64,000 nucleotides of DNA from Eledone cirrhosa (Eukaryota). The stretch covers positions 90,148,001 through 90,212,000 of the forward strand of contig OZ024747.1 in the NCBI GenBank assembly GCA_964016885.1. Direction: 5' to 3'. Both the position numbers and the translations under genes were made by a program. The notes beneath the pieces are model-generated. The model saw only the letters and a list, made by a program, of their open reading frames with translations. It made no database searches and was not told where the DNA came from. Below, one piece after another: positions 1 through 62,694 of this stretch (within the stretch, counting starts at the first letter, position 1; each line of letters begins with the position of its first letter).

Positions 1-1488
1 AAACCTTGTAAAGTGGTGAGAGACTAGTGAAGAGTTTAGCGTAAAAGTTGGTGTTCATCAGGGCTCTGTTCTTAGCCCCCTACTATTTATTATTGCCCTA
101 CAGGTTATAACAGTGGAGTTCAAGACCGGCTGCCCATGGGAACTCCTATAAGCAGATGATCTAACGCTCATAGCTGAATCAATGGCCGAGCTAGAGAAGA
201 AATTCCAAACATGGAAGCACGGCCTAGAATCAAAAGGCCTTAAAATTAACCTGGCTAAGACTAAAGTTCTAGTTTGTAGGAAAGAAAATAAGGCGCCGGT
301 CCCTTCCGGGAAATGGCCATGTTCAGTGTGTAGGAAAGGCATAGGTAGAAACTCCATTTTATGTCCCAAATGCAAAGTATGGGTGCATAAAAGATGTAGT
401 GGGATCACAGGTAAGCTAACTAAGAACATAGATTTTACATGTGGCCGGTGCTCTGGTGCAATAAGTAGCAGCAAGTGCCCACAAAATACTAGCTCTTTCA
501 ATTGCGCAGAGGGTTCTATAGAAATAGTGGACAGCTTCCGTTACCTGGGTGACAAAATCAGCAGTGGGGGAGGGTGCTCTGAAAGTACAGTAGCTAGAGT
601 CAGAACTGGATGGAAAAAGTTCAGAGAGCTTATACCACTATTAGCCGCTAAAGGGTTCTCCCTAAAAATGAAAGGCAGGCTGTATGATGCCTGCATACGA
701 ACAGCAATGTTACATGGCAGTGAGACCTGGGCATTGTGTGCAGAGGATATACGCAGACTAGAGAGGAACGAAGCTTGCATGCTCCGCTGGATGTGTAATA
801 GTAATATACACGAACGGCAAAGCAGAAACGAACTAAGGGAAAAATTAGAAATAAGAGGGATCAGATGTTGTTTAGTCGAGAGAAGGCTACGTTGGTATGG
901 TCACGTGATGCGCATGAAAGACGACAGCTGTATAGAAAAGTGCAGGGCAATAAAGATAGACGGTAGCCACGGAGTAGGCAGACCCAGAAAAACGTGGGAC
1001 GACCTGATAAATTCCGACCTCACACACTTACACCTCTCCAAGACAATGTCACTGGACCGAGATCTTTGGCGGTACTCAGTAATAGAGAAGACCCGCCTTA
1101 CCTGAAATACAAAGTAAAACCTACTACAGTCAGTAGGCATCTCTAACAAAACACACCCCCGTCCCACCACCCCCACCCCATCCACACCGCCCCTTTCAAT
1201 GTAAAGTTATGTTGGTGCCACAACACCAGGCCGAAACAAATGAGATCGTGTAGGTGTCACGACAAAAAAACACATAGTCCACGCTGTAATGTGGTCGTGT
1301 AGGCAACACGGTAAAAACCTCCCAGCCCCACACTGTAAATGTGGTTGGTGTTAGGAAGGGCATCCAGCTATAGAAAACCCGCCAGACAGTACTATGCGAG
1401 CAAGACAACCACTCTTGCCTCAAGTGCGAAAACTCCCATCCAAACCCATGCAAGCGTGAACATGGACGTTAAACGATGATGATGATGA

Positions 1489-1492
<4 letters not shown>
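1..1492 (+). mobile_element. RTE-clade LINE, family A, 3' part (RT C-terminal half + 3' UTR + (GAT)n tail); inactivated
   Basis: [11 protein letters not shown] motif. Catalytic YADD has become stop-ADD (TAA at 149-151). ORF 182..1105 is near-identical to the C-terminus of 14735..17710. Tail gatgatgat runs into (AT)n. Confidence 0.95.
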
Positions 1493-6228: not shown

Positions 6229-6418
6229 GGTGGATTGGCAGTATCGGTAGATGGTCGGATACCATGTTTTGCAGCAAAGAGTTACAGCCCTTTATGGTCT
6301 GAGTTCAAATCTCGCCGAGGTTAACTTTGCCTTTCATCCTTACGGGGTCGATAAAATAAAGTACTAGTAATACACTGGGATAATTGCTGGCCTTGTGCCA
6401 AAAGTAGAAACAATTATT
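6229..6418 (+). mobile_element. tRNA-derived SINE family 2 (central domain resembles Meta-type SINE domain)
   Basis: A-box-like tggcagtatcgg, B-box gagttcaaatc, core ttgcctttcatccttacggggtcgataaaataaagtac, tail agaaacaattat. Confidence 0.85.
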
Positions 6419-7015
6419 AATCCCATTAATTAATTCATTGATTAAACAATAAAAATATGTAAAATCTTTGAAATTATTGCTATTTCATGAAAGTTTATCA
6501 ATGTCTGAATCAGCAAAAGTTTGGTGACACAATTAGTTATTCTTTCTTATAACCCTGAAAAATATGAGAACACACCCATCTACATAAACAAACATACACA
6601 CACCTCACTCCTCATGCACAAATACACACACACTCATGGACATACAAACACTCACACAGAGAGAGAGAAGGATTTATGTACAAATATGTACACACATAGA
6701 AACTTTACAGTTTTTACACTCATACATCAACAACACCAAGTGTTTTAAGGACATCTCTGTTAAAGCAGGAAGTTAGTCTTGAGGGCTCCATGACAAGCTT
6801 CTTCCTTTTTCCCTGTCATCTGCATTACCCTCATCAACACATTGGTTTTCATTTCCTTCTCTACTAAATTTAACCCAGTTTTTTTTAGGTCTTCTGAACA
6901 TTATCTTTTTATTCCTCTGTTTCTGATGAAGGACTAACATCTGATATGTCAAACATTCTTTTTCAAACAGGAATCTAATAACACTATAGTTATTGTATCT
7001 CTGTGTGCTTTTTAG

Positions 7016-7098
<83 letters not shown>

Positions 7099-7181
7099 CG
7101 TTATTCCGGGTTGAATCGGAGGTAAACACAGTAAGTAAGGTACTCAATACATAGCAGTGTATAAAAGTTTTAATATAGATG

Positions 7182-7232
7182 AGATTCTACAGGACTAGAA
7201 CTGTTTCATTCATTAGAAATCATCAGGAATCT
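7182..7232 (-). ncRNA. Type I hammerhead ribozyme (PLE-1 inverted pLTR)
   Basis: Reverse complement of 19393-19443: AGAUUC-CUGAUGA-UUUCUAAUGAAU-GAAA-CAG-UUCUAGUC-CUG-UA-GAAUCU. Confidence 0.8.
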
Positions 7233-7836
7233 GGGTATCAAAAAATAAATATGGTATTTATAGGTCTCTACAAGTGGTAGGAGAGGGTGGGGAGTGGGAT
7301 GGGTGCAGGTCATTGGTTGATAGAAAAGGGGATTCATTAAAAGCTAATTCTACAAAGCTATAGTTTATTTTTATTTATTTATGTTTTTAGAGTAACAAGG
7401 GCAGACAGAATTCTATAAACAGGTTCCGGATGGCATACCATTCCTTGTCAATAAGTTTCTCTTAAGCTAACAGATGTCTATAAAATCAGTGGGGGGGTCA
7501 GTCATGGTCGATAGAATTAAAGAAAAGGGAGATTCTTTAAAAGCTAATATCATTAAGGTTCTACTAAATGACAAAGGTCTAGAGAATTCTGCAGACAGAT
7601 TCAAAATACTGAGTGCATATCTTACTATTATCTTCGAACTTCTCTTAAACTAATCAACTATATGCCAAAAATCAACAGACACATTCACAAAAAAACAAAA
7701 AAACAAAAAAACACATACTCACTCACACACTTACGCGCAACCATAAACACACACACAAACACATATACACACATAAAAACACACACACATATATAAAAAA
7801 ATATATTCATGTACACACAGATACATACACACATAC

Positions 7837-7883
<47 letters not shown>

Positions 7884-8082
7884 TATATACACACATATAT
7901 ATATACACACACACATATATATATACACATACACACACACATACACATACATACACACACACACACACATATATACACAAATAAATACACTCACACGCAT
8001 ACATACAAACACAAATATACATGTGTATACATATACACACACATACATATAGACATATATACATACACATACACAGACACAT

Positions 8083-8132
<50 letters not shown>

Positions 8133-8198
8133 ACATACATACATACACATATAAATATATACACACACACATACGTATACACATAAATACATATATAT

Positions 8199-8247
<49 letters not shown>

Positions 8248-8249
8248 TG

Positions 8250-8295
<46 letters not shown>

Positions 8296-8304
8296 AAAAA
8301 AAAA

Positions 8305-8844
8305 ACCACACCTAACCTAGCTAGGAATATAGCCAACCACAATTCTAAACTAAATAAGCCAACCACCTCCGAAACCAATCCCCGGACTGGGGCTCTATGT
8401 AATTGCCTAAATAAGGAAGCATGCCCACTTGAAAACAAATGCCTCACAAATGACATCGTATACAAATGCGATGTCATCTCAGGCACCGAGGATTGCAAAA
8501 AAACTTACATCGGCATGACCTCCAACAACTTTAAGACCCGTTGGTATGCCCATACCCACTGCTTCAGAGGACCGGATAAAGCAAATCAGACAACACTCGC
8601 CTCCTACGTTTGGGACCTCAAAAGGAACTCCACCCCCTTCACGCTTAATTGGAAAATACTCCAGAAAGCGCGCTCTTACAACGGAGGACAGAAGGGCTGC
8701 GACCTTTGTATTTCAGAGAGCTACGAAATTTTATTCGCCAAGGGCCCGCTACTGAACAAACTCTCTGAACACTGCCCGAACTGCATGCACAAGAACTTTG
8801 CAACTTTCAAACACTTTAAGCCAGTGTTAAAGCCCGATGGCTAA
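8305..8844 (+). pseudogene. PLE-1 C-terminal GIY-YIG endonuclease fragment
   Basis: Open frame TTPNLARNIANHN...CNCLNKEACPLENKC...IVYKC...TYIGMTSNNFKTRWYAH...CDLC...CMH; 5'-truncated at the inverted pLTR junction. Confidence 0.9.
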
Positions 8845-9061
8845 AAACTGACCTCCCCCTATTGGTCCCTATACCTCCTCCCCACCCTACCCCCACCCCT
8901 CCTCAACCTGAAATACGGCCACTATGGTTATGTGAGTACCTCTTTCGTATCTACATTTTCTGCCTGTAGAGGTGTCTTTATGTGCCTGCGTATATGCGTA
9001 TATTTATTGAGTACCTATTTATTTGTATGTGTATATATTTGTTTGTATGTGTGTATATGTA

Positions 9062-9094
<33 letters not shown>

Positions 9095-9190
9095 GTTTGT
9101 GTGTATATGTGTTTTATGTGTGTATATTTATGTATGTATATGTATGTATATATGTGTGTATATATATGTATATATATATATATATGTGTG

Positions 9191-9226
<36 letters not shown>

Positions 9227-9276
9227 TGTGTATGTATGTATGTTTATGTATGTGTGTGTGTATGTATATGTATGTG

Positions 9277-9315
<39 letters not shown>

Positions 9316-9350
9316 GTGTATGTGTATGTATATGTATATGTTTTTATATA

Positions 9351-9401
<51 letters not shown>

Positions 9402-9444
9402 GTATGTCTGCGTGCGTGTGTGTGTGTGTATATATATATATATG

Positions 9445-9533
<89 letters not shown>

Positions 9534-9543
9534 GTGTGGGCAG

Positions 9544-9576
<33 letters not shown>

Positions 9577-9608
9577 AAGATCAAAAGATGGTTAAAGGAG
9601 TTCAATAT

Positions 9609-9677
9609 ATTTTATTATGCGCATTTCAAAAACAAACATCATCAAACAATAATATTTGTGTTTTCATCAGATAAAAC
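9609..9677 (-). ncRNA. Type I hammerhead ribozyme (PLE-2 3' pLTR)
   Basis: Reverse complement of 12911-12979. Confidence 0.88.
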
Positions 9678-10896
9678 AGGAGAACATGATATGAAGGCTA
9701 AAAAAACACTTGTTGATAGTGCAGTTTTAAATCAACATATGAAAAGTGGTTTTAGATTGATGTGTGATATTGGGAAAAATATTTTATTTAGAGAGGGGGG
9801 GAGAGAAAAGGATGAAAAGGGAAGGAGATGAGAGGGAGAGATGGGTGATAGAGAGAAAGAGATAGTTTTTATAACAGAGAGGAGATATATTTTATATAGA
9901 GGGGTTGAAAACCGTTGGAAGATACTGTATAAATTAAAAATTTTGAAAATTAACGAAGGGAGGATATGTGCGAGGAAAAAATATATTATATTTAGGGAGG
10001 GGTGGGGGTGGAAAGGATGAAAAAAAGGGAGGAGATGAGAGTGAAGGTGGAAAGGGAGAGATGGGTGATAGAGAGAAAGAGATAGTTTTTATAACTGAGA
10101 AAAAGATATAATGTTTTAATATAGAGAGGTTGGGAACCGTTGGAAGATAATGTATAAATTAAAGGAATTTGAAAATTAACGAAGGGAAATTATGTATGGA
10201 GATAGAGAGAAAAAAATAACGAAGGGAGATTATGTATGGAGATAGAGAGAAAAAAATAATAATTGTGGGTGAATATTCAAAAGGAGAAATGTAGGAATCT
10301 TAAAATTAGCAAAGAGAAAAAGTTTATGTATAGGATTTGAGAAAAATTTATATTGAATTCATATGTATTAATAATGAGTTCGTTGATGGGGAGAAAAAAA
10401 TAATAATAATAAATTAAGGATGAAATTGAGATTAAAAAGATTTATGATAGAGAGAAAAAATAATAATGATTGCGGATGAATACTCAAAATGTCAAAAACA
10501 AATGTTATTGTTTTACGAAGAGATATAATGAGGGTGATGAGTAAACGGGTATTATAGAGTGTATAATGCCCTTTAAAGTAAGGTAGATGGGTATATTTTA
10601 AAGAATATATGAGTATATATTAAAAAAAATATATATAATAATAAATTAAGGATGAAATTGAGATTAAAAAGATTTATGATAGAGGGAAAAAAAAAAATAA
10701 TAATGATTGCGGATGAATATTCAAAATGTCAAAAACAAATGTTATTGTTTTACGAGAAGATAGGATGAGGTAAATGAATAAACGAGTACTATAGAGTGTA
10801 TAATGCCCTTTAAAGTAAGGTAGATGGGTATATTTTAAAGAGGTGTATGTATATGTGCCTTTGAGAAAAGATTCTAAATTGATAAAGAATTGAATA

Positions 10897-11895
10897 TTAA
10901 CTGTATACTTTGTGAAAAGTTCTATGGAATTTATGAAGGCAGATGGAAAACAAATCCGAGCGTCTATTTATTATGGATTCTAGGTTAGAGATAATGGTAA
11001 ATTTTTCATTTAGGCAGAGATTACAGATTTTAGATAGAGAACTGTTCAAGTACGAGGATGCAGAAGAAATCTTTTTCCAAAAGATGTTATATTTAATGTT
11101 TTTGTCTTTTAAGGACCATATGAGTTCTGAGAGAGCAGTGTTAGTTCTTTTAAGTTTGTATTTGAAAGATGAATGATGATTATAGAGACGAGCTTTAAAA
11201 GAGGTGGAAGTGGAGCCAAAATAGGTGAAGGAGTTGGTGCTAGTTATAATTTTACATTCATAAATTAAGTTTTTATCGAGGCAATGGTTGTTGAGAGGAC
11301 ATTTATTTTTAATGCGGCAGTTGCAATTAGAGAGATTATTAATGAGTGATCTAGTGTTATCTATAGAAGGAATTGGATTGGAGAAGTTGTTTGCGATAGG
11401 AATAATAGGAATAATAGTTTCTTGATTTAGAGTTGGATTATGAACATTTAGCGAAGTTGTGTTTGACGTTGCATTTGGGTTTACAGAAGTTAGCCTAGGG
11501 TTTACAATGACGTCAGGAGTACTATTATTGTTATTATGAGATTCAATATTGGAAGGAAGAGATTTAGTATTTAATATTTTGTTGTTGTGTTTAGAAATGA
11601 TGTTGGAAATATTGGAGGATGTAGAATACGAAAATTTAATGGTGTGTTTGTTAAATATTTTACTATAGATATGTGAGGGAGGGAAGCATTTATTTAAGGC
11701 ACTAAAAAATAATTTAGGAATATTGTTATTAATAGAGATGGAGAAAGGAGCATTATACCAGATTATGTTTTTGTATCTAGGTCTTTTATTAAAATTATTG
11801 GAATGGTTATGATTAAATATTCTACTGTAAGTTTTCCTAGAATTTGTTTCTTTATTATATTTGATTTTATCTGGATAGCCAGCTTTAGAAAGTGC
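10897..11895 (-). pseudogene. PLE-2 RT-thumb end/linker + GIY-YIG endonuclease fragment (~333 codons, no start Met, not in ORF track)
   Basis: ALSKAGY...KNIIWYNAPFS...FPPSHIYSKIFNKHTIKFSYS...CNCRIKNKCPLNNHC...LIYEC...YFGSTSTSFKARLYNH...CNLC...CLHK..stop. Confidence 0.9.
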
Positions 11896-12910
11896 GTTTT
11901 TCCCTCTATCATAAATCTTTTTAATCTCAATTTCATCCTTAATTTATTATTATATATATTTTTTTTAATATATACTCATATATTCTTTAAAATATACCCA
12001 TCTACCTTACTTTAAAGGGCATTATACACTCTATAATACCCGTTTACTCATCACCCTCATTATATCTCTTCGTAAAACAATAACATTTGTTTTTGACATT
12101 TTGAGTATTCATCCGCAATCATTATTATTTTTTCTCTCTATCATAAATCTTTTTAATCTCAATTTCATCCTTAATTTATTATTATTATTTTTTTCTCCCC
12201 ATCAACGAACTCATTATTAATACATATGAATTCAATATAAATTTTTCTCAAATCCTATACATAAACTTTTTCTCTTTGCTAATTTTAAGATTCCTACATT
12301 TCTCCTTTTGAATATTCACCCACAATTATTATTTTTTTCTCTCTATCTCCATACATAATCTCCCTTCGTTATTTTTTTCTCTCTATCTCCATACATAATT
12401 TCCCTTCGTTAATTTTCAAATTCCTTTAATTTATACATTATCTTCCAACGGTTCCCAACCTCTCTATATTAAAACATTATATCTTTTTCTCAGTTATAAA
12501 AACTATCTCTTTCTCTCTATCACCCATCTCTCCCTTTCCACCTTCACTCTCATCTCCTCCCTTTTTTTCATCCTTTCCACCCCCACCCCTCCCTAAATAT
12601 AATATATTTTTTCCTCGCACATATCCTCCCTTCGTTAATTTTCAAAATTTTTAATTTATACAGTATCTTCCAACGGTTTTCAACCCCTCTATATAAAATA
12701 TATCTCCTCTCTGTTATAAAAACTATCTCTTTCTCTCTATCACCCATCTCTCCCTCTCATCTCCTTCCCTTTTCATCCTTTTCTCTCCCCCCCTCTCTAA
12801 ATAAAATATTTTTCCCAATATCACACATCAATCTAAAACCACTTTTCATATGTTGATTTAAAACTGCACTATCAACAAGTGTTTTTTTAGCCTTCATATC
12901 ATGTTCTCCT

Positions 12911-12979
12911 GTTTTATCTGATGAAAACACAAATATTATTGTTTGATGATGTTTGTTTTTGAAATGCGCATAATAAAAT
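12911..12979 (+). ncRNA. Type I hammerhead ribozyme with palindromic stem III (PLE-2 inverted pLTR)
   Basis: Stem I GUUUUAU/AUAAAAU, CUGAUGA (12918), long stem II, GAAA (12961), stem III AUGCGCAU, cleavage triplet AUA (after 12972). Confidence 0.88.
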
Positions 12980-13105
12980 ATATTGAACTCCTTTAACCAT
13001 CTTTTGATCTTATATTATGCATACTCCAGTCCCACAAACTGTAGAGTGCTTCTTATCCGATATCTGCATTGCTTTATTGTACTACAATAAAACTCACCTC
13101 CTACA

Positions 13106-13143
13106 TATATATATATATATATATATATGTGTGGGCAGGTGTG

Positions 13144-13174
<31 letters not shown>

Positions 13175-13175
13175 T

Positions 13176-13246
<71 letters not shown>

Positions 13247-13248
13247 GT

Positions 13249-13302
<54 letters not shown>

Positions 13303-13303
13303 A

Positions 13304-13357
<54 letters not shown>

Positions 13358-13457
13358 TATGTATGTGTGTGTGTGTATATATGTATACGTGTGTATGTGT
13401 GTGTATATATATTTGTGTGTGTGTGTGCGCATGTGTGTATGCGCGTGTGTGTGTATG

Positions 13458-13536
<79 letters not shown>

Positions 13537-13627
13537 ATGTGTGTGTATATATGCGTTATATGTCTGTATATATATGTGTATATTTATGTATAGGTCTGTG
13601 TATGCATGTGTATGTTTGTATATGTAT

Positions 13628-13697
<70 letters not shown>

Positions 13698-13807
13698 ATA
13701 GATATTTATACATATGCATGTGTATGTGTGTGTGTGTGTATGTGTATATATATGTGTGTATATATATATGTGTGTGCGTGTGTATATATATGTGTGTGTA
13801 TTTGTAT

Positions 13808-13839
<32 letters not shown>

Positions 13840-13846
13840 GTATATA

Positions 13847-13889
<43 letters not shown>

Positions 13890-14133
13890 GTGTGTATGTA
13901 TGTATGTGTATATATATGTGTGTGTGTGTGTATGTGTGTGTATATCTGTATATATAATATGTATATGTGTGTGTAAGTATATGTATGTATATGTGTATAT
14001 ATGTGTATATATATATGTGTATATATATATATATGTATGTATATGTATATATGTATGTACATGCGTGTATATATGTGTGTATATATATGTTTATATGTAT
14101 GTATGTGTATATGCATGTTTGTATGTGTGTTTG

Positions 14134-14174
<41 letters not shown>

Positions 14175-14175
14175 G

Positions 14176-14246
<71 letters not shown>

Positions 14247-14586
14247 GTGTGTGTGTATGTATGTATATATGTGTGTATATTTTTATATGTTTGTATATAT
14301 TTGTGTGTATGTATATATATATATATGTACATATATATATATGTGTATGTGTGTGTATGTATGTGTGTATATGTATATATATATGTATATGTGTGGGTGT
14401 GTGTATATATGTATGTATATATATATATATGTGTGTGTATATATATGTATATATATATATATGTATATATGTATATAAATATGTGTGTATGTGTATGTGT
14501 GTATATATGTATATATATATGTGTATATATATGTATATATATATATGTATGTATGGTGCTTTTTCCTTATATATGTGTATATATAG

Positions 14587-14650
<64 letters not shown>

Positions 14651-14693
14651 GTATGTATGTGTGTGTGTGTGTTTGTATGTGTATATATTTGTT

Positions 14694-14733
<40 letters not shown>
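13106..14733. repeat. Compound (TA)n/(TG)n microsatellite
   Basis: Direct inspection; continuous in character with 9020-9570 and 18200-18885. Confidence 0.95.
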
Positions 14734-14736
<3 letters not shown>

Positions 14737-17700
14737 GCTTGAACGTAAGGAGGTCGATGTTTGTTGTATTCAAGAGACCAGGTGGAGGGGAGGGTCGGCT
14801 AGATTCATCGTGGGTAAAGAACGATGCTATAAGCTTTTCTGGGTGGGAAATGACAATGGGTTGGGTGGGGTAGGAATCATGGTAGCAGAAAAGTGGGCAG
14901 ATAAGATAATAGACGTAAATAGAGTGAACGACAGAATAATTAAAATAAGACTTGTCCTCAATAAAACTACGGTGACAGTAATATCTGCGTACGCACCCCA
15001 ATCCGGACTGCCCCGCGCTATAAAAGACAGATTCTACGAGACACTGATGCTCGCTACCTCCCAAATAACCGACAGTGACTATATAGTTATTGCAGGCGAC
15101 CTAAATGGTCACGTTGGACAACATTGTGACGGCTATGACGGAATCCATGGAGGCTATGGGTTCGGTACTAGAAATGAGGAAGGCTCCAAAATCCTGGAAT
15201 TCTGCGACGCAAATAACTTAACTATCTGTAACACTAACTTCAAAAAACGAGACAATCACTTGATCACCTATAGATCGGGGGAACACACAAGCCAGGTAGA
15301 TTATATCCTTACCAGAAGACGTGACAGAGTGTCTGTTGTTAACACTAAATCCCACCCCCATGAAGAATTCACCTCCCAACATAGACTGATAATTAGCGAC
15401 CTCATAGTCAGGACGAGACGTACTAGACAGCGGAAGAGGACTATCCTCAGGAGAAAAATATGGAAGCTAAAGGACCCCATAGCCAGAAATATATTTCAAA
15501 GCATATTACTTGACGCTTTCGACAGTAAGGAAGAGCAATTAGAGTCGTATAATATAGAGGAACAGTGGGAATTCCTGAGAGCAAACCTGCTGACGGCGGC
15601 AGACGAAGTCTGTGGCTGGAGCAGGCCTGTAGGTAGGAGGAGAGTAACATGGTGGTGGAACAGTAAGTTGGAGGAGTCAATTAAGGCCAAAAAGCAGGCT
15701 TGGAAAGTATGGCGGGATGGGGGAAGTAGAGAAGACTATCAAGTGGCCAGGAGGGAAGCTAGGAGACAAGTGTACTTCGCAAGAAGGGAAGCAGAGGAAA
15801 GAAAGTTCAAGCATGTTCTACAACGTGAGGACCAAAAACGTGAGGTGTTCAGGATTGCCAGGCAATGTGTCAAGGAAAACCGTGATATTGTCGGGGAGAA
15901 GTGTGTACTTAACGATGATGGCATACTTGCCATCACCGACGCTGATAAGAAGGTAGCTTGGAAGTGTCACTACGAAAGGCTTCTAAATGAGGAGAACAAA
16001 TGGGAGAAAGACAGTCTCCCCCAGATCGATCCAATAGAGGGACCAGCAGTGTTAGTTGAAGGTAGTATAATAAGTAAGGCAATCAAAGATATGAAGACGG
16101 GTAAGGCGGCTGGGCCTTCGGAAATAGTTGCTGAGATGCTGAAGGCATCTGGTTCGGTGGGACACACCATGGTCACCCGGATAGTTAACCAAGTCGTACA
16201 GAATGGGGTTGTTCCGAAGGAATGGCGTAGCAGCATCATCGTTAACTGCTATAAGGGAAAAGGAGATGCCCTAGATAGGAGTAACTATAGAGGCATTAAA
16301 TTAATCGACCAGGTCATGAAGGTCACGGAAAAAGTAATAGCGCAACTAATCAGAGAGAGAATTGATCTAGATGAAATGCAGTTCGGGTTTGTGTCAGGCA
16401 AAAGTACCACAGACGCTCTTTTCATTGTACGACAACTACAGGAGAAGTACCTAGCTAAAAGTAAACCCCTATACTTAGCTTTCGTCGACTTGGAGAAAGC
16501 CTTCGACAGAGTCCCCCGTTCCATTATCTGGTGGTCTCTTAGAAAACTAGGTGTTGACGAATGGCTTGTGAGAGCTATACAAGCCATGTATAAAGAAACA
16601 GTCAGTAAGGTTAGAATTAACAACGAATATAGTGAAGAGTTTAGCGTAAAAGTTGGTGTCCATCAGGGCTCTGTTCTTAGCCCCCTACTATTTATTATTG
16701 CCCTTCAGGCTATAACAGAGGAGTTCAAGACCGGCTGCCCATGGGAACTCCTATACGCAGATGATCTAACGCTCATAGCTGAATCAATGACCGAACTAGA
16801 GAAGAAATTCCAAACATGGAAGCACGGCCTAGAATCAAAAGGCCTTAAAATTAACCTGGCTAAGACTAAAGTTCTAGTTTGTAGGAAAGAAAATAAGGCG
16901 CCGGTCCCTTCCGGGAAATGGCCATGTTCAGTGTGTAGGAAAGGCATAGGTAGAAACTCCATTTTATGTCCCAAATGCAAAGTATGGGTGCATAAAAGAT
17001 GTAGTGGGATCACAGGTAAGCTAACTAAGAATATAGATTTTACATGTGGCCGGTGCTCTGGTGCAATAAGTAGCAGCAACTGCCCACAAAATACTAGCTC
17101 CTTCAACTGCGCAGAGGGTTCTATAGAAATAGTGGACAGCTTCCGTTATCTGGGTGACAAAATCAGCAGTGGGGGAGGGTGCTCTGAAAGTACAGTAGCT
17201 AGAGTCAGAACTGGATGGAAAAAGTTCAGAGAGCTTATACCACTATTAGCCGCTAGAGGGTTCTCCCTAAAAATGAAAGGCAGGTTATACGATGCCTGCA
17301 TACGAACAGCAATGCTGCATGGCAGTGAGACCTGGGCATTGTGTGCAGAGGATATACGCAGACTAGAGAGGAACGAAGCTTGCATGCTCCGCTGGATGTG
17401 CAATAGTAATATACGTGAACGGCAAAGCATAAACGAACTAAGGAAAAAATTAGAAATAAGAGGGATCAGATGTTGTTTACTCGAGAGAAGGCTACGTTGG
17501 TACGGTCACGTGATGCGCATGAAAGACGACAGCTGTATAACAAAGTGCAGGGCAATAAAGATAGACGGTAGCCACGGAGTAGGCAGACCCAGAAAAACAT
17601 GGGACGAGCTGATAAATTCCGACCTCACACGCTTACACCTCTCCAAGACAATGTCACTGGACCGATACCTTTGGCGGTACTCAGTAATAGAGAAGACCCG

Positions 17701-18200
17701 CCTTACCTAAATACAAAGTAAAAACCTACTACAGTCAGTAGGCATCTCTATCAAAACACACCCCCGTCCCACCACCTCCACACCGCCCTTTTCAATGTAA
17801 AGTTATGTTGGTCCCACAACATCCAGGCCGAAACAAATGAGATCGTGTAGGTGTCACGACAAAAAACACACAGTCCACGCTGTAAATGTGGCCGTGTAGG
17901 CAACACGGTAAAAACCTCCCAGCCCCACACTGTAAATGTGGTTGGTGTTAGGAAGGGCATCCAGCTGTAGAAAACCCGCCAGACAGTCCACGCTGTAATG
18001 TGGCCGTGTAGGCAACACGGTAAAAACCTCCCAGCCCCACACTGTAAATGTGGTTGGTGTTAGGAAGGGCATCCAACTGTAGAAAACCCGCCAGACAGTC
18101 CTATGCGAGCAAGACAACCACTCTTGCCTCAAGTGGGAAAACCCCCGTCCAAACCCATGCAAGCGTGGAACACGGACGCTAAACCTGATGATGATGATGA
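14733..18200 (+). mobile_element. RTE-clade LINE family A, near full length (slightly 5'-truncated)
   Basis: Single APE+RT ORF, ~490-bp 3' UTR, (GAT)n tail, inserted in (TA)n. Confidence 0.97.
14735..17710 (+). CDS. RTE ORF: apurinic endonuclease + reverse transcriptase with internal PHD-type finger (991 aa, uninterrupted)
   Basis: APE motifs CCIQET, SAYAPQ, AGDLNGH, QVDYIL, SQHRL. RT motifs [35 protein letters not shown]. The first APE strand appears to be missing. Confidence 0.95.
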
Positions 18201-18376
18201 TATATATATATATGTGTGTGTGTATGTATGTATATATGTATGTGGTTATATATATATGTATATGTGTATATATATGTGTGTGTGTGTTTGTGTGTATGTG
18301 TGTGTATATGTATATATATGTGTGTGTATGGTTTTTTTTTTTTTAATATATATATATATATATGTGTGTGTGTGCA

Positions 18377-18437
<61 letters not shown>

Positions 18438-18505
18438 ATATATATGTATGTATGTGTATACGTATGTGTGTGTGTATATATTTATATGTGTATGTATGTA
18501 TGTGT

Positions 18506-18549
<44 letters not shown>

Positions 18550-18750
18550 ATATGTGTCTGTGTATGTGTATGTATATATGTCTATATGTATGTGTGTGTA
18601 TATGTATATACATGTATATTTGTGTTTGTATGTATGCGTGTGAGTGTATTTATTTGTGTATATATGTGTGTGTGTGTGTGTATGTATGTGTATGTGTGTG
18701 TGTATGTGTATATATATATGTGTGTGTGTATATATATATGTGTGTATATA

Positions 18751-18793
<43 letters not shown>

Positions 18794-19392
18794 GTGTGTA
18801 TGTATCTGTGTGTACATGAATATATTTTTTTATATATGTGTGTGTGTTTTTATGTGTGTATATGTGTTTGTGTGTGTGTTTATGGTTGCGCGTAAGTGTG
18901 TGAGTGAGTATGTGTTTTTTTGTTTTTTTGTTTTTTTGTGAATGTGTCTGTTGATTTTTGGCATATAGTTGATTAGTTTAAGAGAAGTTCGAAGATAATA
19001 GTAAGATATGCACTCAGTATTTTGAATCTGTCTGCAGAATTCTCTAGACCTTTGTCACTTAGTAGAACCTTAATGATATTAGCTTTTAAAGAATCTCCCT
19101 TTTCTTTAATTCTATCGACCATGACTGACCCCCCACTGATTTTATAGACATCTGTTAGCTTAAGAGAAACTTATTGACAAGGAATGGTATGCCATCCGGA
19201 ACCTGTTTATAGAATTCTGTCTGCCCTTGTTACTCTAAAAACATAAATAAATAAAAATAAACTATAGCTTTGTAGAATTAGCTTTTAATGAATCCCCTTT
19301 TCTATCAACCAATGACCTGCACCCATCCCACTCCCCACCCTCTCCTACCACTTGTAGAGACCTATAAATACCATATTTATTTTTTGATACCC

Positions 19393-19443
19393 AGATTCCT
19401 GATGATTTCTAATGAATGAAACAGTTCTAGTCCTGTAGAATCT
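19393..19443 (+). ncRNA. Type I hammerhead ribozyme (PLE-1 3' pLTR)
   Basis: Stem I AGAUUC/GAAUCU, CUGAUGA (19399), stem II UUC/GAA, GAAA (19418), stem III ACAG/CUGU, cleavage triplet GUA. Confidence 0.8.
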
Positions 19444-19982
19444 CATCTATATTAAAACTATATGTATATATATATATATATGTGTGTTTGTGTATGTATT
19501 TATATATATATGTATATAACCATCCGCTCCCTAGAAGTCTTATATATTTTTATGTGGGCTGATAGGGGGCGGATTAAGGAATTGCAGAAACCCAAGAAGC
19601 TAGATTTACCACCTTTCTAGTGGGTCCGGGTAAGTTTTTACTTTCATATAAATTATTGGTTTATTGATATTTTATCTGAGTGACCCGAATCTTCCTGGTC
19701 GTTCTTTTTCGGCTGCACGGGTGATTTTAGGCATAATCTTTGTGTGTTGGTATTTTAACGATAGTTATAGCTCTGATTTATCTGAATTATTGAGCCCTCT
19801 GCCACTCATGTCGGATTTGTTTATCGTAAATTCGTGAGCTGATTTTCCGATACTCGATTATTCTATTATAAATGTTTATATACAGATATATATTTAGATA
19901 TCTCTATATATATATATATATATACATATATGCTCTTTTACTCTTTTACCTGCTCCAGCCATGCTTATATATATATACTGTA

Positions 19983-21099: not shown

Positions 21100-23244
21100 T
21101 TATTTAGCTCTAGTATTAATGTAAGGGAGATATATATAGAGAGAAAAAAACTAAACAAAATAACAACTTTTTTAATTACGGCAACAACATTAACAACTAT
21201 AATAGAAAGCATTACAATAATTCCAAAGGCCAAAAAAGAAATAGAACTAGGAACATAATTTGGTTTGCCCCCCTTTCTCACTAAACATTAAAACCCACAT
21301 CGCTAAATTATTTTTCAAAGCTCTGGATAATCGCTTCCCTAGAACACATAGGTATCACTCAATTTTCAATAGGCATACAATTAAATTAACCTACTCATCC
21401 ACCAAAAATTTAGCACAAAATATTAATAGAATAAATAATAGGAACTTAAAACCTAGTGATAATAGCATAAATAATATACAAGTTAGCAAATGTAACTGTA
21501 GAGATAGATCTAAATGTCCGTTAAATAACAACTGCTTAGTTAAAAATATAGTATACAATTGTAATGTTAATACTGACTCTAATTCTTTTAACTACGTCGG
21601 TTCCACATCGACGGAATTTAAACTTCGCTATAATAACCACAAGAATTCTTTCACGGATCCAAGTAAAAAATCTTCAACGGCACTATCAGGCGTACTCTGG
21701 CAACTTAAGCTAGATAACGTTAGATATTCGACGGCTTGGAATATAGTCTCAAGAGGGATTCCTTTTAATTCATCTTCTGAGACATGTGACCTCTGCGCAG
21801 AGGAGATATTCTTTATACTAAAATCTAAAAATTCCCTTAATCTACGGACAAATTTATTCAGTTGTTGCAAACATAGATTAAACTCAACGTTTAAATATAA
21901 ATTTAAATTTAAAATGTAGTATATTTAGTTTGATTTATATTTATATGGGAAACTAGCCGATAAATTTTTGATTCCTAAATTTTTGATTCCTTCTTTTTAT
22001 TCTTTTTTTATTGTTTATTTTTATTTTATTTTTATTTAAACAGTCCTCATGAAAAATTAAGCTACCCTAAAAGCTGATGCTCCAAATATTTTGAATAAAC
22101 CTTACACTAGATAAACTTCTATATTAAATATAAGAACACATGTAGACCAAATTGGACTTCATAAACTTTTTGAAATGATCTTTGCTAGATGTGATTTGAT
22201 AGATAATTTTTGGCTTTGTCTTATAATGAACTTGGCAATATATTGTCAATCAATTTTGAAGGGTTGATCTTTGTGGTTTATTTTTATTTTTTTTATTATT
22301 GTAGTATTTTATAATATTTTTTATTTTTATTTTTAATATCTTTAATATGTAAATTTTTTAATACGTAATATTTTTTAATACGTAATATTTTTTAATATGT
22401 AATATTTTTAATATGTAATATTTTTAATATGTAATATTTTTAATATGTAATATTCTTTCGTAATATTTTTTTAGTTTTCTATTTTATTATTACCTATTAT
22501 TATTATTGTTATCTTTTTATTTTTTATTTTTTTTTATTTTTTTTAGTTTTGTTTCCGATATATATTTTTATTAGTATATTGAAATCTGCTCTCTATTTCT
22601 GCTTGATAGATAATCTTGTAGAATAAAGACAGGAATAATAATACACATATATGTATACTCAAATTTTTATACCACATTGAGAATGTTTTCCGTGAACTTA
22701 GAGTTTGCAGAGTTGATAATGTTTGTAGCTATCACATAAACATATGAACAAACAATACTGACCTAAGAGAAGTATAAATATATAAATAAATACATACACA
22801 AGAACAATAACAACAAACACATATAAACACACACTAGTAAACTAAGATAGAATACAATAACCAATACACAGTCACCCAAACACGAACACACATCAAACAC
22901 TATACACACACGAAAACGCATGCGCAGAGAAGACAAAAAAAAAATAAATAAATAAACAGACTAAATAAAGATGGCGTAGGCATACAATACAAGAGGAGGA
23001 AACATAATAGCACACTGACGATGTTGCAGATGTGCACCGAAAGAACTTTGTTAGACTATATATATGTGTTTGTGTCTATATTATATATGTATTTTTGACC
23101 GTTGGTCAGTCAATGGTAACATTGAGGAACGAATAAATTAAATTAACCGATATAAAAGACACAAGCGAAAACCAACCAAACAGTGAGTGTGTTATTAATT
23201 CTGGCAATATTATTACACAAATATGACCCTCCCCAAGTATAACA

Positions 23245-23250: not shown

Positions 23251-23275
<25 letters not shown>

Positions 23276-23277
<2 letters not shown>

Positions 23278-24565
23278 CCACCAGGGCTCTGTTCTTAGCC
23301 CTCTCCTGTTCATCATAGTCCTGCAGGCAACAATGGAGGAGTTTAAGACCGGATGCCCATGGGAACTCCTGTATGCTGATGACCTCGCACTTATAGCTGA
23401 ATCTATGGTAGAACTAGAGAAGAAATTCCAAACTTGGAAGCAGGGACTAGAAAGAAAGGGTCTCAAAGTCAACATGACAAAGACTAAGGTCCTTGTAAGT
23501 AGACGAGAAAACAGAACCCAGATCCCCTCAGGGAAATGGCCTTGCTCAGTATGTAGGTAGGAACTCCATTCTCTGCCCCAAATGCAAACAATGGGTACAC
23601 AAGAGATGTTGCAGGATCTCAGGAAGCTTAATTAAGAATGTAGGCTTCACATGCAGCAGCTGTGCTGGGACAGCAAGCATCAAACAGCCACAGGAAACAA
23701 GTACCACCAATCTCTGGGAGGGCTCTGTAGAAAGAGTAGACAGCTTATGCTACCTAGGTGACCGAATTAGCAGCGGAGGTGGGTGTTCAGAAAGTACAAT
23801 AACTAGGGTAAGAACGGGATGGAAGAAGTTCAGGGAACTACTACCACTGCTAGCTGCAAAAGGCTTCTCCCTCAAAATGAAAGGCAGACTGTATGATGCG
23901 TGTAATCGAACAGCAATGTTACATGGTAGTGAGACCTGGGCGCTGAAGGTGGAAGACTTACGTAGATTAGAAAGAAATGAAGCCTGCATGCTCCGATGGA
24001 CGTGTAATAGTAATATACGCGAACGACAAAGCATAAATGAATTGAGAGAGAGACTGAGCATAAGAGGAATCAAATGCTGTGTGCAGGAGAGGTGGTTGCG
24101 TTGGTATGGACATGTGATGCGTATGAAGGATGACAGCTGCATAAAAAGGTGCAGAGCACTAGAAGTCGATGGAAACCGCGGAGTGGGGAGACCCACGAAG
24201 ACCTGGGATGAGGTGATAAAAGCCGACCTTACCCAATTACACCTCCCAAAGGCGATGACACATGACTGTGAACTCTGGCATCATGCAGTAATACAGAGTA
24301 CCCGACCTCCCATGGGTACAAGCTGAAGTATAGAGACAATATGCACCCACACCCTCCCACTGCAAGGTGGTCGTGGAGGTGCCACGCAAAAAAGCACCCA
24401 GCCCACACTGTAAAGTGGACGTGTAGGCGCCACGGAAAAAGCACCCACCACTCACTGTAAATGAGGTTGGTGTTAGGAAGGGCATCCAGCTGTAGAAATC
24501 AAGCCAGAATCAGTTCCCGCCCCACCCTTGCAAGCAGGGAAAAAGAAGACATAAAATTTTGATGA
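23276..24565 (+). mobile_element. RTE family B, 5'-truncated, frameshifted, short-type 3' end
   Basis: ORFs 23333..23560 and 23877..24326 match 37645..39717; small deletion at ~23557; (TA)n on both sides. Confidence 0.95.
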
Positions 24566-24759: not shown

Positions 24760-27700
24760 ATATAAAATGAAAGTGCTTTTATAAAGGAATTTATTAGGTA
24801 TTGACATATGTTTCTGTAACAGACGGAATATCTATGTATCGCTGCTTGTGTAATCATATAATGTTAGCAAGTATTCGATAGCAAATGTATAATCAGTTGT
24901 CACTTCTTCAGAGATATTGGATACATTGGAAATAATCAGAAAAATTGAAATATTTATATTAGTTGTAAGAAAGGAAGAGGAGAGGGGATAGTATATGACA
25001 GATGGCAATTCAATTTACTGGTAAACAAGTATCTAAAAGGTTTCTAATGAGAATACAATGAGTATATGGTTTATTTTATCTAAATAAGAATTTTTGGGAG
25101 TGCCTATTTTAATCTATACTTGACCAATTGAACAATGGACAGGGCTGGTCGTTTGGTGTAGTAGTATTAATAGATATAAAGTGTCAATTAAGGAAGAGGG
25201 AGATTTTCACTGCTACTGAATAACAACAATGTTGGTAGCCTGCTGGTATATGCATTAGGGAATTGAATTAAGAAATCTCATTTTATCTATAGCAGTTTAT
25301 ATTAAATGGTAAAGAATAGAAGAGTTGATAGAATTAAGACTAATAGAGAATGTTAATATGTATTTTGACAATCAAACGGAGATGGAGACAGGCGTTCAAT
25401 CCTGGTAGTGTTTGTAATATGAAAATGTAGATTTCAAGCGATGGTTACAGTATAGCGATCGCTCTATTCTGTTATTTAATAAAATATTTTTTGATTTCAT
25501 AATACAAAATAATTCCATATTACACAATTTACAAAATTCCTGTCCGTGGGATATGCAGGGGCAGCGCTATTATATCCCATTTTAGGTTAAATTGTTGGTT
25601 ATTTTCGCGCAGCTGCCAAGCCTTGTCTGCGAGTGTTGTTACATAACGCTGGTTTTCATGTTTTATTGAGTAACGATGTCTGAGACGAGATTTGAAGGAT
25701 GTAGCTGTAGACCCCACATAGTACCACTTCTGGCTATCCGATTCGATAGTACATTTGTATATGATGTTGCTTTCAAGACACTGATTGTTCAACGGACACA
25801 TTCCTGGTTGGACACGGTTACAGTTATAATTTTGTGTTGTTGTATTGGCATGGATGGGTTGATGAGGTTGCTTAGGTAGGACGGGATGTTGTTTGTTGTT
25901 TTGTGATGTTATAGCCGATGTTTTACGTGTATTGTTATGTGTTGGAAGGCGTTTATACAACCGTTTTGCGTTAAGCTTTTTTATATGTTGTTCAATATTA
26001 GGGGCGGTTGAATATGAAAGTCGAATAGTGTTAGGGTTTAAGATTTTATTATATTTATGTGATGTTGGAAAGTGTTTTTTAACTAATCGAAAGAATTGTG
26101 AGGGTAGATTGGTTTTAATAGAGTTGTTATAGACCGGGTTGTACCATATATACTCTTTACATCGCCTTCTGTTTGGTAGTGTGCGACTATTAGTGTGTCT
26201 ATTGCGGTAGTGTATGTATGGTGGTGATTCTATGCTATTTCTACCTCTATGAGATTTATTTTGGGTGTTTTGGTGATCATCGACTATATACTCTATATTA
26301 TCTAGGTGTCCAGCCTTCCTAAGTGCATCATCATAATATTCGGCATGTTCTTTGAAGGTTTGCTGGTTGGACGACAGGCGGGAGATTCTAAGGGAAATAT
26401 TTCTAGGGATGGATTTAATTATAGAGGGTGGATGGTTAGAACCCGTATTTACATATTTAAGGTTCTCATTTAGTTTATGGGACGGTTTAATCGTTTCTGT
26501 ATTGAGATTCAAAGTAACATCAAGGAAATTAACCTCTTTGAGGTTATATTCAAATGTAATATTTAATCCTAGTTCCTTAAAAAGCTTTCTGATATTTTTA
26601 CGCATCCTTTCTAAATTCTGGTTATTCATATGCTTAACTAATAGGAGCGCATCATCACGGTAGATTCCACCGTGGAGATCCTTGAAATTTCCTTGTAGTT
26701 TGTGGGTGATATAAATTCCCACAAGATCAGTTACTTCCGCCGAATCATTGGAACCCATAGTAATATCAAAATTAGAAGGTCTATCTTTGCGAACCCAGTA
26801 GCTATCATCAAATTTAACAATAGTTTTCCTCGCTTCCATAATAATATTAATTTCAGCATCCGTAAGGTCGGAATTAGCCTTAGCGAACGAAAGAGCTTCA
26901 TGCAGAGTATCAGGTGAAATTGAGGAATAATATTCATCAATATCGAACTGAATAAATTTTGATTTTTTCTTATCAGTAATGCTATTAAACCATCTTATTG
27001 CCTCATGGGTGTTACCCCATAGTTTAATATCTACTTTAGTCTTAACTTGGGGGATAATTCTGTCTAGTATATATTTGCTAATTTTGCCTGTATCAGATTT
27101 AGAGGGGCATATAAGTCTAATTTTAGGGTCAGTATCGAAGTTTACCTTGTGGTCCTTCAGGTTGAAGGATGGTGTAGCTGGTGTTAAGGGTTGCGTTCTA
27201 TCGTCAATACAAAGTTTTTTAACAATTTCACATGCCGAGTTGTTGATGTTTTTAAGTGTAGCTTCATTAGTTTTCTTGTATTTTTTATGCAATTCCTTAC
27301 GGATGAAGTTATTGTAAGTGTCCACATCCATGGTATATACGTTTGATGTTTTGGCTGCACTAACAATAATTCCATTGGCGTTTTTTAGATTATTGAGCAG
27401 TGCTGTGATGTCATTCTGTAGTTTATTGTTTTTCTGTTTTGTAAATTTGATCTCCATGATCATATCCATTAGGTCTTGTTCAAATGCATCCAAAAGTGGG
27501 TTTGAGGGTGGGTTTTTGTAAGATTTAAATCCAAATTTATCCTTGTTAAGATCCGATATTTGGTTTATACGGCTTTTGTCAAAGTGGAATGTTTTCCATC
27601 TGATTCGTCGAATAAAATCATTGGTCCTTCGTATCATACCTAGAATATATTCCTTTTTTGCCTGAATAGGTTTGTTTTTTAACGACATATCCAATTTGTA

Positions 27701-27770
27701 CCTTTCCATTTTAGAGGCGTATGCTGAATTAGTTGCTCAACTGTATAGGAGATTATTAAAATTTCAGGTT
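24760..27770 (-). mobile_element. Penelope-like element PLE-4, near full length
   Basis: RT + GIY-YIG ORF with ~630 bp 3' region, flanked by (TA)n and (GA)n tracts. Confidence 0.9.
25396..27709 (-). pseudogene. PLE-4 reverse transcriptase + C-terminal GIY-YIG endonuclease, frameshift near 25560
   Basis: LKDHK...IRLICP, FIQFDIDEYY, ITMGS, GIYRDD, FLDV, SNHPP, IWYNP, CNR..CPLNNQC, YVGSTATSFKSR. The shifted frame continues FCKLCNMELF...YCNHR...stop at 25396. Confidence 0.9.
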
Positions 27771-62614: not shown

Positions 62615-62694
62615 TATATCATCATCATCATCATCATCATCATTTTTATGTCCGCTTTTCCCTGCTTGCAAGGGTGGGAATATATATGTGTGTG

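What the first reader, a model, noticed from the sequence alone, without database searches (positions are those of the whole stretch)
7098..19459. Nested insertion: a PLE carrying microsatellite as its own cargo, invaded by a second PLE and an intact RTE
Seen: ~7168-8308 is an inverted copy of ~18329-19459. The copy includes ~550 bp of compound (TA/TG)n whose irregular pattern is preserved in both copies (7740-8290 vs 18345-18885). The GIY-YIG ORF (8305-8844) is separated from its own 3' end by ~2.9 kb of microsatellite plus PLE-2 (9571-13105) and the RTE (14733-18200). Inference: the microsatellite was reverse-transcribed as part of the pLTR, so PLEs spread compound microsatellites that then act as landing pads for other TA-targeting retroelements. 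This feedback loop could help explain the microsatellite load of this genome.
Basis: partly seen in the sequence, partly recalled or inferred. Interest (0 to 1): 0.72.

Follow-up and report, generated by a model that had tools for sequence, protein, structure and literature searches.

The report
Jumping gene carries its own target
A Penelope-type jumping gene in this animal genome carries a 1.5-3.5 kb TA/TG microsatellite inside its tail end, likely copied along each time it jumps; other jumping genes have landed in that stretch, but it supplies only an estimated 1-2% of the genome's microsatellite DNA.

Summary
The nesting is real and the cargo is a family trait. PLE-1 is a young Penelope-like element with Hydra-clade motifs (713-aa ORF in full copies, hammerhead-like motif, two fixed ends in (TA)n). 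In 33 of 38 fetched copies a 1.5-3.5 kb compound (TA/TG)n array lies between ORF and hammerhead, about half the ~5.5 kb unit. Its interruptions recur in order, and array variants track the flanking SNPs (Mantel rho 0.67, p 0.0005), so the array is inherited with the element. Older subfamilies carry shorter, different arrays. The array attracts insertions (19 in 14 of 33 copies; none in the 3' unique part), once from PLE-1 itself. Corrections: the RTE is 5'-truncated, not intact. The loop cannot explain the genome's load: PLE-1 supplies about 0.8-2.4% of ~305 Mb of such arrays, and 0 of 29 RTE and 0 of 30 PLE-2 loci lie in one. A Penelope carrying SSRs is published for shrimp; a kilobase array of its own target was not found in my searches. 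The scan noted the two-ended pattern elsewhere in this genome before; I found no note on the cargo.

The parts
7017..7098 (.). Left (TA)n target; its last ~14 bp match the first ~14 bp of the right flank, a likely target-site duplication
7099..7166 (-). 'Tail' of the inverted arm = 5' leader of PLE-1 (long fixed end)
   Evidence: runs into the ORF in tandem copies such as L071 and L078
7167..7740 (-). Inverted copy of the 3' unique part, with hammerhead-like motif at about 7182-7232
   Evidence: 2 differences in 575 bp from 18885-19459
7741..8311 (-). Inverted copy of the last ~550 bp of the array, then an A-run junction with short microhomology to the ORF
   Evidence: best match is its own direct arm, rank 1 of 33; junction
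8309..8844 (+). 3' end of the PLE-1 ORF (GIY-YIG endonuclease), 5'-truncated
   Evidence: up to 99.1% identical to 38 other copies
8845..9010 (+). First unique part of the 3' UTR (GTGAGT at 8932)
9011..9570 (+). Cargo array, part 1
   Evidence: family landmarks in order
9571..13104 (-). PLE-2: two-armed Penelope-like element (arms 9571-10691 and 11897-13017, tail 13018-13104, truncated ORF 10897-11890), no internal array; it duplicated the landmark TGTGGGCAGGTGTG
   Evidence: 40 genomic hits at 100% to its 3' end
13105..14732 (+). Cargo array, part 2
14733..18200 (+). RTE LINE with (GAT)n tail; open 991-aa frame but 5'-truncated
18201..18884 (+). Cargo array, part 3
18885..19459 (+). 3' unique part with hammerhead-like motif 19393-19443 (CTGATGA 19399, GAAAC 19418, predicted cut after 19437), ending at the short fixed end
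   Evidence: read from sequence; ends; the MFE fold does not show the hammerhead
19459..19518 (.). Right (TA/TG)n target

Best explanation
PLE-1 is a Penelope-like retrotransposon with Hydra-clade motifs whose 3' UTR holds a kilobase compound (TA/TG)n array that is inherited from copy to copy, likely because the reverse transcriptase copies through it at each jump. Shown: the layout leader - ORF - short unique part - array - unique part with hammerhead-like motif; the ordered landmarks; co-variation of array and flanking SNPs; two fixed ends in (TA)n; later insertions into the array. Inferred: both cut ends of a (TA)n target prime on the element RNA at two fixed sites, one giving the direct arm (here copied through the whole array and 536 bp into the ORF) and one the inverted arm (stopped ~550 bp into the array), joined by microhomology. 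Inferred order in the window: PLE-1 first, then the RTE and PLE-2 into its TA runs. Inferred: the array is a neutral hitch-hiker that changes by TA-run slippage and block gains or losses, and has roughly doubled in length in the source lineage. The feedback (element carries its own target) is real but small at genome scale.
For: Array present in 33 of 33 copies whose two unique parts were both inside the fetched 10 kb (38 fetched, at 35 places; in the other 5 no 3' unique part fell within reach); net length 1,501-3,464 bp, median 2,580. Shortest spacing between the two unique parts is 1,082 bp in 27 pairs taken by position on contig C1; 36 of 63 upstream hits had no partner in the list. Landmarks 5-16 of 22 against 0-1 in controls. 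Mantel rho 0.67, p 0.0005, 19 uninterrupted copies. Own direct arm is the best match of the inverted array in 4 of 6 loci, second in 1, twelfth in 1. One long and one short end in 7 of 8 loci with both ends scored; the eighth runs on into a second ORF. In vitro, a Poseidon PLE cuts and extends both strands and starts at two internal sites (PMC11167929, abstract and first part of main text). Order: PLE-2 up to 100% and RTE 99.4-99.7% identical to sister copies, PLE-1 at most 99.1%; the landmark flanking PLE-2 is doubled in the window and in 1 of 38 others. Older subfamilies (81-96% identity in the 3' part) also carry arrays, sharing 0-4 landmark clusters; uninterrupted lengths median 1,358 (n=5) against 2,544 (n=18), p 0.0001.
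Against: No RNA run is listed, so passage of the array through RNA is inferred, not seen. The inverted arm alone could also arise by DNA-level template switching. The length trend rests on 5 hand-picked older copies, two pairs of which share a locus, and on a midpoint-rooted tree; older arrays may have shrunk after insertion. The hammerhead motif does not appear in the MFE fold (z 0.32). Pfam finds no RT family in the full ORF; the RT call rests on motifs read by eye. The 38 copies were the best matches to the window's copy, not a random draw.
Confidence: 0.85

Rival explanations
1. Genome-scale feedback loop: PLE-carried arrays seed much of the genome's microsatellite load and are the main landing pads of TA-targeting elements.
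For: Insertions are dense in the arrays (0.23 per kb). One older copy holds a short PLE-1 end inside its own array (L303). One locus holds 12 tandem units of array plus 3' end (L300-L301). TE carriage is credited with SSR expansion in shrimp (PMC7878876, passages).
Against: TA/TG-type arrays make up 10.2% of 79 evenly spaced 10-kb stretches, about 305 Mb. Only 2 of 53 arrays of 300 bp or more were PLE-1 lineage, both at one locus. Exact-motif counts of 142-940 and at most 1,796 candidates give 2.4-4.7 Mb, 0.8-1.5%; these counts are lower bounds for decayed copies. 0 of 29 other RTE loci and 0 of 30 PLE-2 loci (7 are internal tandem joints, some are arms of one insertion) show PLE-1 landmarks. 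PLE-2 and the PLE at 25529-27736 have no such array in the 3' UTR.
Confidence: 0.08
2. The array is kept because it does something, for example it lies in a retained 3' UTR intron (GTGAGT at 8932, AG at 18967) that is spliced for translation, or it serves as a decoy or spacer.
For: No array-free copy among those examined across about 18% divergence of the 3' part. Splice-like motifs flank the array. PLEs can retain introns (PMC8557442, passage).
Against: PLE-2 is highly successful without an array. The array's pattern turns over completely between subfamilies. Such short splice motifs are common by chance.
Confidence: 0.12
3. The arrays grew separately at each locus after insertion from a short seed, or the structure is an assembly artefact.
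For: TA-run lengths differ freely even between arms of one insertion; no long reads were available.
Against: Ordered landmarks shared across chromosomes and their co-variation with SNPs cannot arise locus by locus. The arms differ at 2 unique sites, and the same two-armed layout recurs at other loci. Contigs of another data set show opposite-strand joints in this element.
Confidence: 0.03

Closest known systems
Hydra clade of Penelope-like elements, incl. Hydra-1_Obim (Craig et al. 2021, PMC8557442; section 11, passages and supplement hits read)
   Same: Single ORF with C-terminal GIY-YIG, RW(K/R), DKT, CxCx5C linker, CxxC-E and N-CxH, hammerhead motif, (TA)n targets, inverted 5'-truncated arm and tail.
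   Different: Described Hydra elements are generally under 3 kb (Hydra-1_Obim 2,507 bp); this unit is about 5.5 kb, about half microsatellite. 'microsat' has 0 hits in the supplement text searched. Tail here is about 68 bp against the 30-40 bp given for PLEs.
Penelope elements carrying SSRs in Litopenaeus vannamei (Yuan et al. 2021, PMC7878876; passages read; authorship recalled)
   Same: Recent Penelope copies (>98% identical) with syntenic internal SSRs taken to have moved with the element, then lengthened.
   Different: There it is a two-copy comparison without clade, position or size in the passages seen. Here it is one kilobase compound array inside the pLTR, traced across subfamilies, identical in kind to the element's own target.
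Microsatellite seeding by CR1-L3 and Rex LINE 3' tails in snakes (PMC6050309; passages read); review PMC3812793 (passages)
   Same: Retrotransposition spreads a microsatellite with the element.
   Different: Those are terminal tails of one short motif and explain a genome-wide excess; this array is internal, compound, and a minor part of the load.
SaTar microsatellite-targeted MULE arrays in guayule and rice (PMC5907723; abstract only)
   Same: Unrelated elements pile up by targeting microsatellites.
   Different: DNA transposons in non-nested arrays; here retroelements nest inside another element's UTR.

Membership tests
Penelope-like element (EN+) | Single ORF with RT and C-terminal GIY-YIG endonuclease | tested here: met
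   713-aa ORF in L078 with YRDD and GIY-YIG; GIY-YIG above Pfam cutoff in the window fragment, below it in L078; no Pfam RT hit, so RT is by motif and by-eye likeness to Hydra proteins
Penelope-like element (EN+) | pLTRs in tandem or inverted arrangement, 5' truncation, tail at one end | tested here: met
Penelope-like element (EN+) | Hammerhead ribozyme motif in the pLTR | tested here: inconclusive
   core letters and stems I and III readable at 19393-19443, but not the MFE fold and not among the Rfam rows shown; cleavage untested
Hydra clade | RWK motif near the N-terminus; DKG changed to DKT | tested here: met
   RIRWRAF (K to R) and SSDKTKN (definition)
Hydra clade | [quoted passage not shown] | tested here: met
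   CNCLNKEAC; CDLC-ISE, LLN...CMH
Hydra clade | CCHH motif absent from the endonuclease | tested here: met
   no CxxC between the IVY and YIG half-motifs; two Cys lie 8 residues apart there, read by eye
Hydra clade | Insertion into (TA)n | tested here: met
   nearly all scored ends that do not run on into an ORF abut TA repeats (63 ends listed, some duplicated between overlapping loci)
Hydra clade | Generally shorter than 3 kb (descriptive, not defining) | tested here: not met
   about 5.5 kb unit because of the array
Hydra clade | RT phylogeny groups with reference Hydra proteins | not tested
   reference proteins were seen only as supplement text; no tree with them was built
RTE clade LINE (window insertion) | One ORF with AP endonuclease and RT, short-repeat 3' tail | tested here: met
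Intact (full-length) RTE | 5' UTR and complete endonuclease N-terminus | tested here: not met

The most novel reading that the evidence does not exclude
The telomerase-related RT of this lineage is a microsatellite factory: slippage and re-priming inside TA runs lengthen the internal array at each generation of source elements (about 1 kb to about 3 kb), the element inserts into its own cargo, and array-plus-hammerhead units break off as tandem non-autonomous repeats. Summed over all Hydra families and their decayed copies, such cargo would be a sizeable source of the long compound arrays in this genome.
Probability: 0.12. Interest if true: 0.7.

Novelty: new variant of a known kind. Interest (0 to 1): 0.42.

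Why it matters
It is an unusually clean case of a retroelement that carries a large piece of its own preferred target. Hundreds of dated copies, and pairs of arms made in one insertion, give a natural assay of how fast compound microsatellites change through reverse transcription and afterwards, and of how PLEs build their inverted ends. It also warns annotators: repeat maskers will split such elements at the array, which may be why Hydra consensus sequences look short. It does not explain the genome's microsatellite load.

Tried and rejected
Rfam scan: only TA/TG-driven miRNA noise below gathering scores. RNA search: no RNA holder listed; laying four contig sets on an array-free stretch of a full copy showed no joint from the upstream unique part back to the downstream one among the rows shown, which is no evidence on splicing. 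Long reads: none offered, so the window's own assembly was not checked directly. Co-transport of nested elements by PLE-1: insertions of one family in different copies mostly sit at different places; L065 and L092 hold ends of one family in the same TA run but are only 93% identical, so likely independent. Loose landmark hits in L115 and L131 flanks vanished with the strict set. Look-up of earlier scan notes by sequence was blank. Literature searches; none listed a PLE with a kilobase internal compound array, but subscription papers (Arkhipova 2006, Evgen'ev and Arkhipova 2005, Repbase reports) were not searchable, Fig. 2g and supplements of PMC7878876 were not seen, and the Hydra nucleotide consensus sequences in the PMC8557442 supplement were seen only in fragments. 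The supplement of the bioRxiv retrozyme paper was not consulted.

Full report
Observation. A self-comparison of the window finds 7166-8311 inverted against 19459-18326 at 96%. In the unique part the arms differ at 2 places in 575 bp; in the ~550 bp array part at 6 substitutions and 5 gaps. The GIY-YIG ORF end is followed by a short unique part, then array, PLE-2, array, RTE, array and the 3' unique part. Without the two nested elements the array and its borders measure 2,948 bp. One claim fails: the RTE is 5'-truncated. A fuller copy in L093 has at least 700 bp more upstream, including about 65 codons of the endonuclease start.

The family. The window lies in a 3.0 Gb genome, G000. The ORF end and the 3' unique part each have 40 scored hits at 98-100% and 1,713 and 1,796 candidates. 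I fetched 10 kb around 38 ORF-end hits (35 places; three pairs are arms of one insertion) plus two other stretches. In 33 the 3' unique part was reached, and all 33 hold the array in between; in the other 5 no 3' unique part fell within reach. Net array length is 1,501-3,464 bp, median 2,580. Full copies encode a 713-aa protein with RWR, DKT, YRDD, CNCx5C, no CxxC inside the GIY-YIG core, and CxxC-E / N-CxH, the motif set given for the Hydra clade (PMC8557442 section 11). Pfam gives no RT hit and I built no tree with reference proteins. The 'tail' at 7099-7166 is the 5' leader seen before the ORF in tandem copies. The unit is about 5.5 kb, roughly half array. That the host is probably an octopus is a suggestion from earlier scan notes and recall, not tested.

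The array is inherited. Of 22 interruptions taken from the window's array, closed copies share 5-16, mostly in the same order; five other arrays of the window share 0-1. Among 19 uninterrupted copies, distance between arrays follows distance between unique parts (Mantel rho 0.67, p 0.0005; 0.47 and 0.57 for the two sides alone). The inverted array is closest to its own direct arm in 4 of 6 loci, second in one, twelfth in one. Of 30 loci found by one internal landmark, 28 show 4 or more landmark clusters and 26 the upstream unique part. Pairing exact motifs by position on contig C1 gave 27 pairs, none closer than 1,082 bp; 36 of 63 had no partner in the list. Older subfamilies also have arrays, with other patterns; L194 is a tandem of two units with near-identical ~1 kb arrays. 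Uninterrupted older arrays are shorter (median 1,358, n=5, against 2,544, n=18; two intermediate copies of 1,979 and 2,382 bp were left out of this test), both in TA runs and in the rest. The older copies were hand-picked and the tree is midpoint-rooted, so growth is likely but not shown.

Mechanism. Ends fall at two fixed points, just after the hammerhead-like motif or about 68 bp further in the leader, and abut TA repeats. In 7 of 8 loci with both ends scored there is one of each. I read this, following an earlier scan note (e1-8668198) and the in vitro result that a Poseidon PLE extends both cut strands from two internal sites (PMC11167929), as both target ends priming on the element RNA. 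The window's inverted arm stopped about 550 bp into the array and joins the ORF by a short microhomology. This step is inferred: no RNA run was listed. PLE-2 then doubled a landmark that is single in most copies, and the RTE split one TA run. Identities to sister copies (PLE-1 up to 99.1%, RTE 99.4-99.7%, PLE-2 up to 100%) fit this order.

Landing pad. In the 33 closed copies I counted 19 insertions of 120 bp or more in 14 copies (82.6 kb of array) and none in 17.3 kb of the 3' unique part (p 0.019). They include RTEs, other PLEs and non-coding elements; an older copy holds a short PLE-1 end (L303). But the pad is ordinary. An RTE 3' 24-mer occurs 4,108 times in the genome; spread over ~305 Mb of arrays this predicts about 1.1 in 82.6 kb (my arithmetic), and 1 was seen. 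None of 29 other RTE loci or 30 PLE-2 loci lies in a PLE-1 array (upper 95% bound about 10% for the RTE).

Genome load. In 79 evenly spaced 10-kb stretches (80 asked, one absent) TA/TG-type arrays cover 10.2% and TRF repeats of period 6 or less 9.2%. Two of 53 arrays of 300 bp or more belong to the PLE-1 lineage, both at one locus, 2.4% of array bases. Exact counts are 142 for an internal landmark, 498 for the upstream unique part, 644 for the array's 3' border and 940 for the start of the 3' part. At a full 2.6 kb each, 940-1,796 copies give 2.4-4.7 Mb, 0.8-1.5% of the load; many copies carry less, and decayed ones escape the count. PLE-2 and the PLE at 25529-27736 have no such array. Whether other families add much was not measured.

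Against what is known. Inverted pLTRs, tails and (TA)n targeting are described for PLEs. Penelope copies moving with internal SSRs are reported in shrimp (PMC7878876, passages), and seeding by LINE tails in snakes (PMC6050309, passages). A recent Octopus vulgaris repeat annotation lists active Penelope-like and RTE families but, in the passages found, no internal arrays (PMC13282606). Passages of the retrozyme preprint and of PMC3124438 added nothing on this point. Eight searches listed no PLE whose pLTR holds a kilobase array of its own target; subscription papers were out of reach.

Verdict. A real, well-supported variant of known things: a Hydra-type PLE with a large inherited microsatellite cargo and a local, not genome-wide, feedback. 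Interest 0.42.

Noticed in passing
L300-L301 (G000:C1:83679001-83699000): Twelve head-to-tail units of ~1.1 kb, each the last ~480 bp of the array plus the 3' unique part, hammerhead-like motif and leader, behind a PLE-1 ORF end: a retrozyme-like tandem that multiplies the microsatellite. TA-run lengths vary between units.
   Followed up: partly
L303, about 4,670-4,850 bp into the UTR gap: A short two-armed PLE-1 end (leader plus hammerhead-like motif) inserted into the array of an older PLE-1 copy.
   Followed up: partly
window 9571-13104; L131-L160: PLE-2 is very young: 40 hits at 100% to its 3' 256 bp, tandems with ~3.9 kb period, and the same two fixed ends (about 87 bp apart). Possibly still active.
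   Followed up: partly
L078:645-840: In contigs of coded runs the hammerhead and leader region is 30-1,000 times deeper than the ORF, with joints that go back 72-77 bp; related 78-89% matches occur in several loci. Suggests abundant short non-autonomous relatives.
   Followed up: no
window 25529-27736 (-) and 21251-21919 (+): Two more Hydra-like PLE ORFs (735 aa near full length; 222 aa end). The second has a T-rich tandem repeat (22289-22458) in its 3' UTR; the same family is inserted in L092.
   Followed up: partly
window 25-1490, 61298-62615, 23275-24517, 37457-39912: Four more RTE pieces from two families (96-98% and about 75% to the nested RTE) in the same 64 kb.
   Followed up: no
window 6229-6428, 34232, 40113, 49534, 52727, 54825, 63538: A ~190 bp SINE-like repeat in at least seven copies at 85-93% identity.
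   Followed up: no
L103, L115, L116, L119, L121, L122, L126, L128, L134: Very young RTE and PLE-2 ends often abut 600-1,500 bp arrays with a regular higher-order unit; roughly what length-weighted targeting would give, not tested further.
   Followed up: no
L075 and L084: Tandem arrays with a ~310 bp period (3.6-5.5 kb) inserted into PLE-1 arrays at different places.
   Followed up: no
window 8932 and 18967: Splice-donor-like GTGAGT and acceptor-like AG after a pyrimidine run flank the array; a retained 3' UTR intron is possible but untested.
   Followed up: partly
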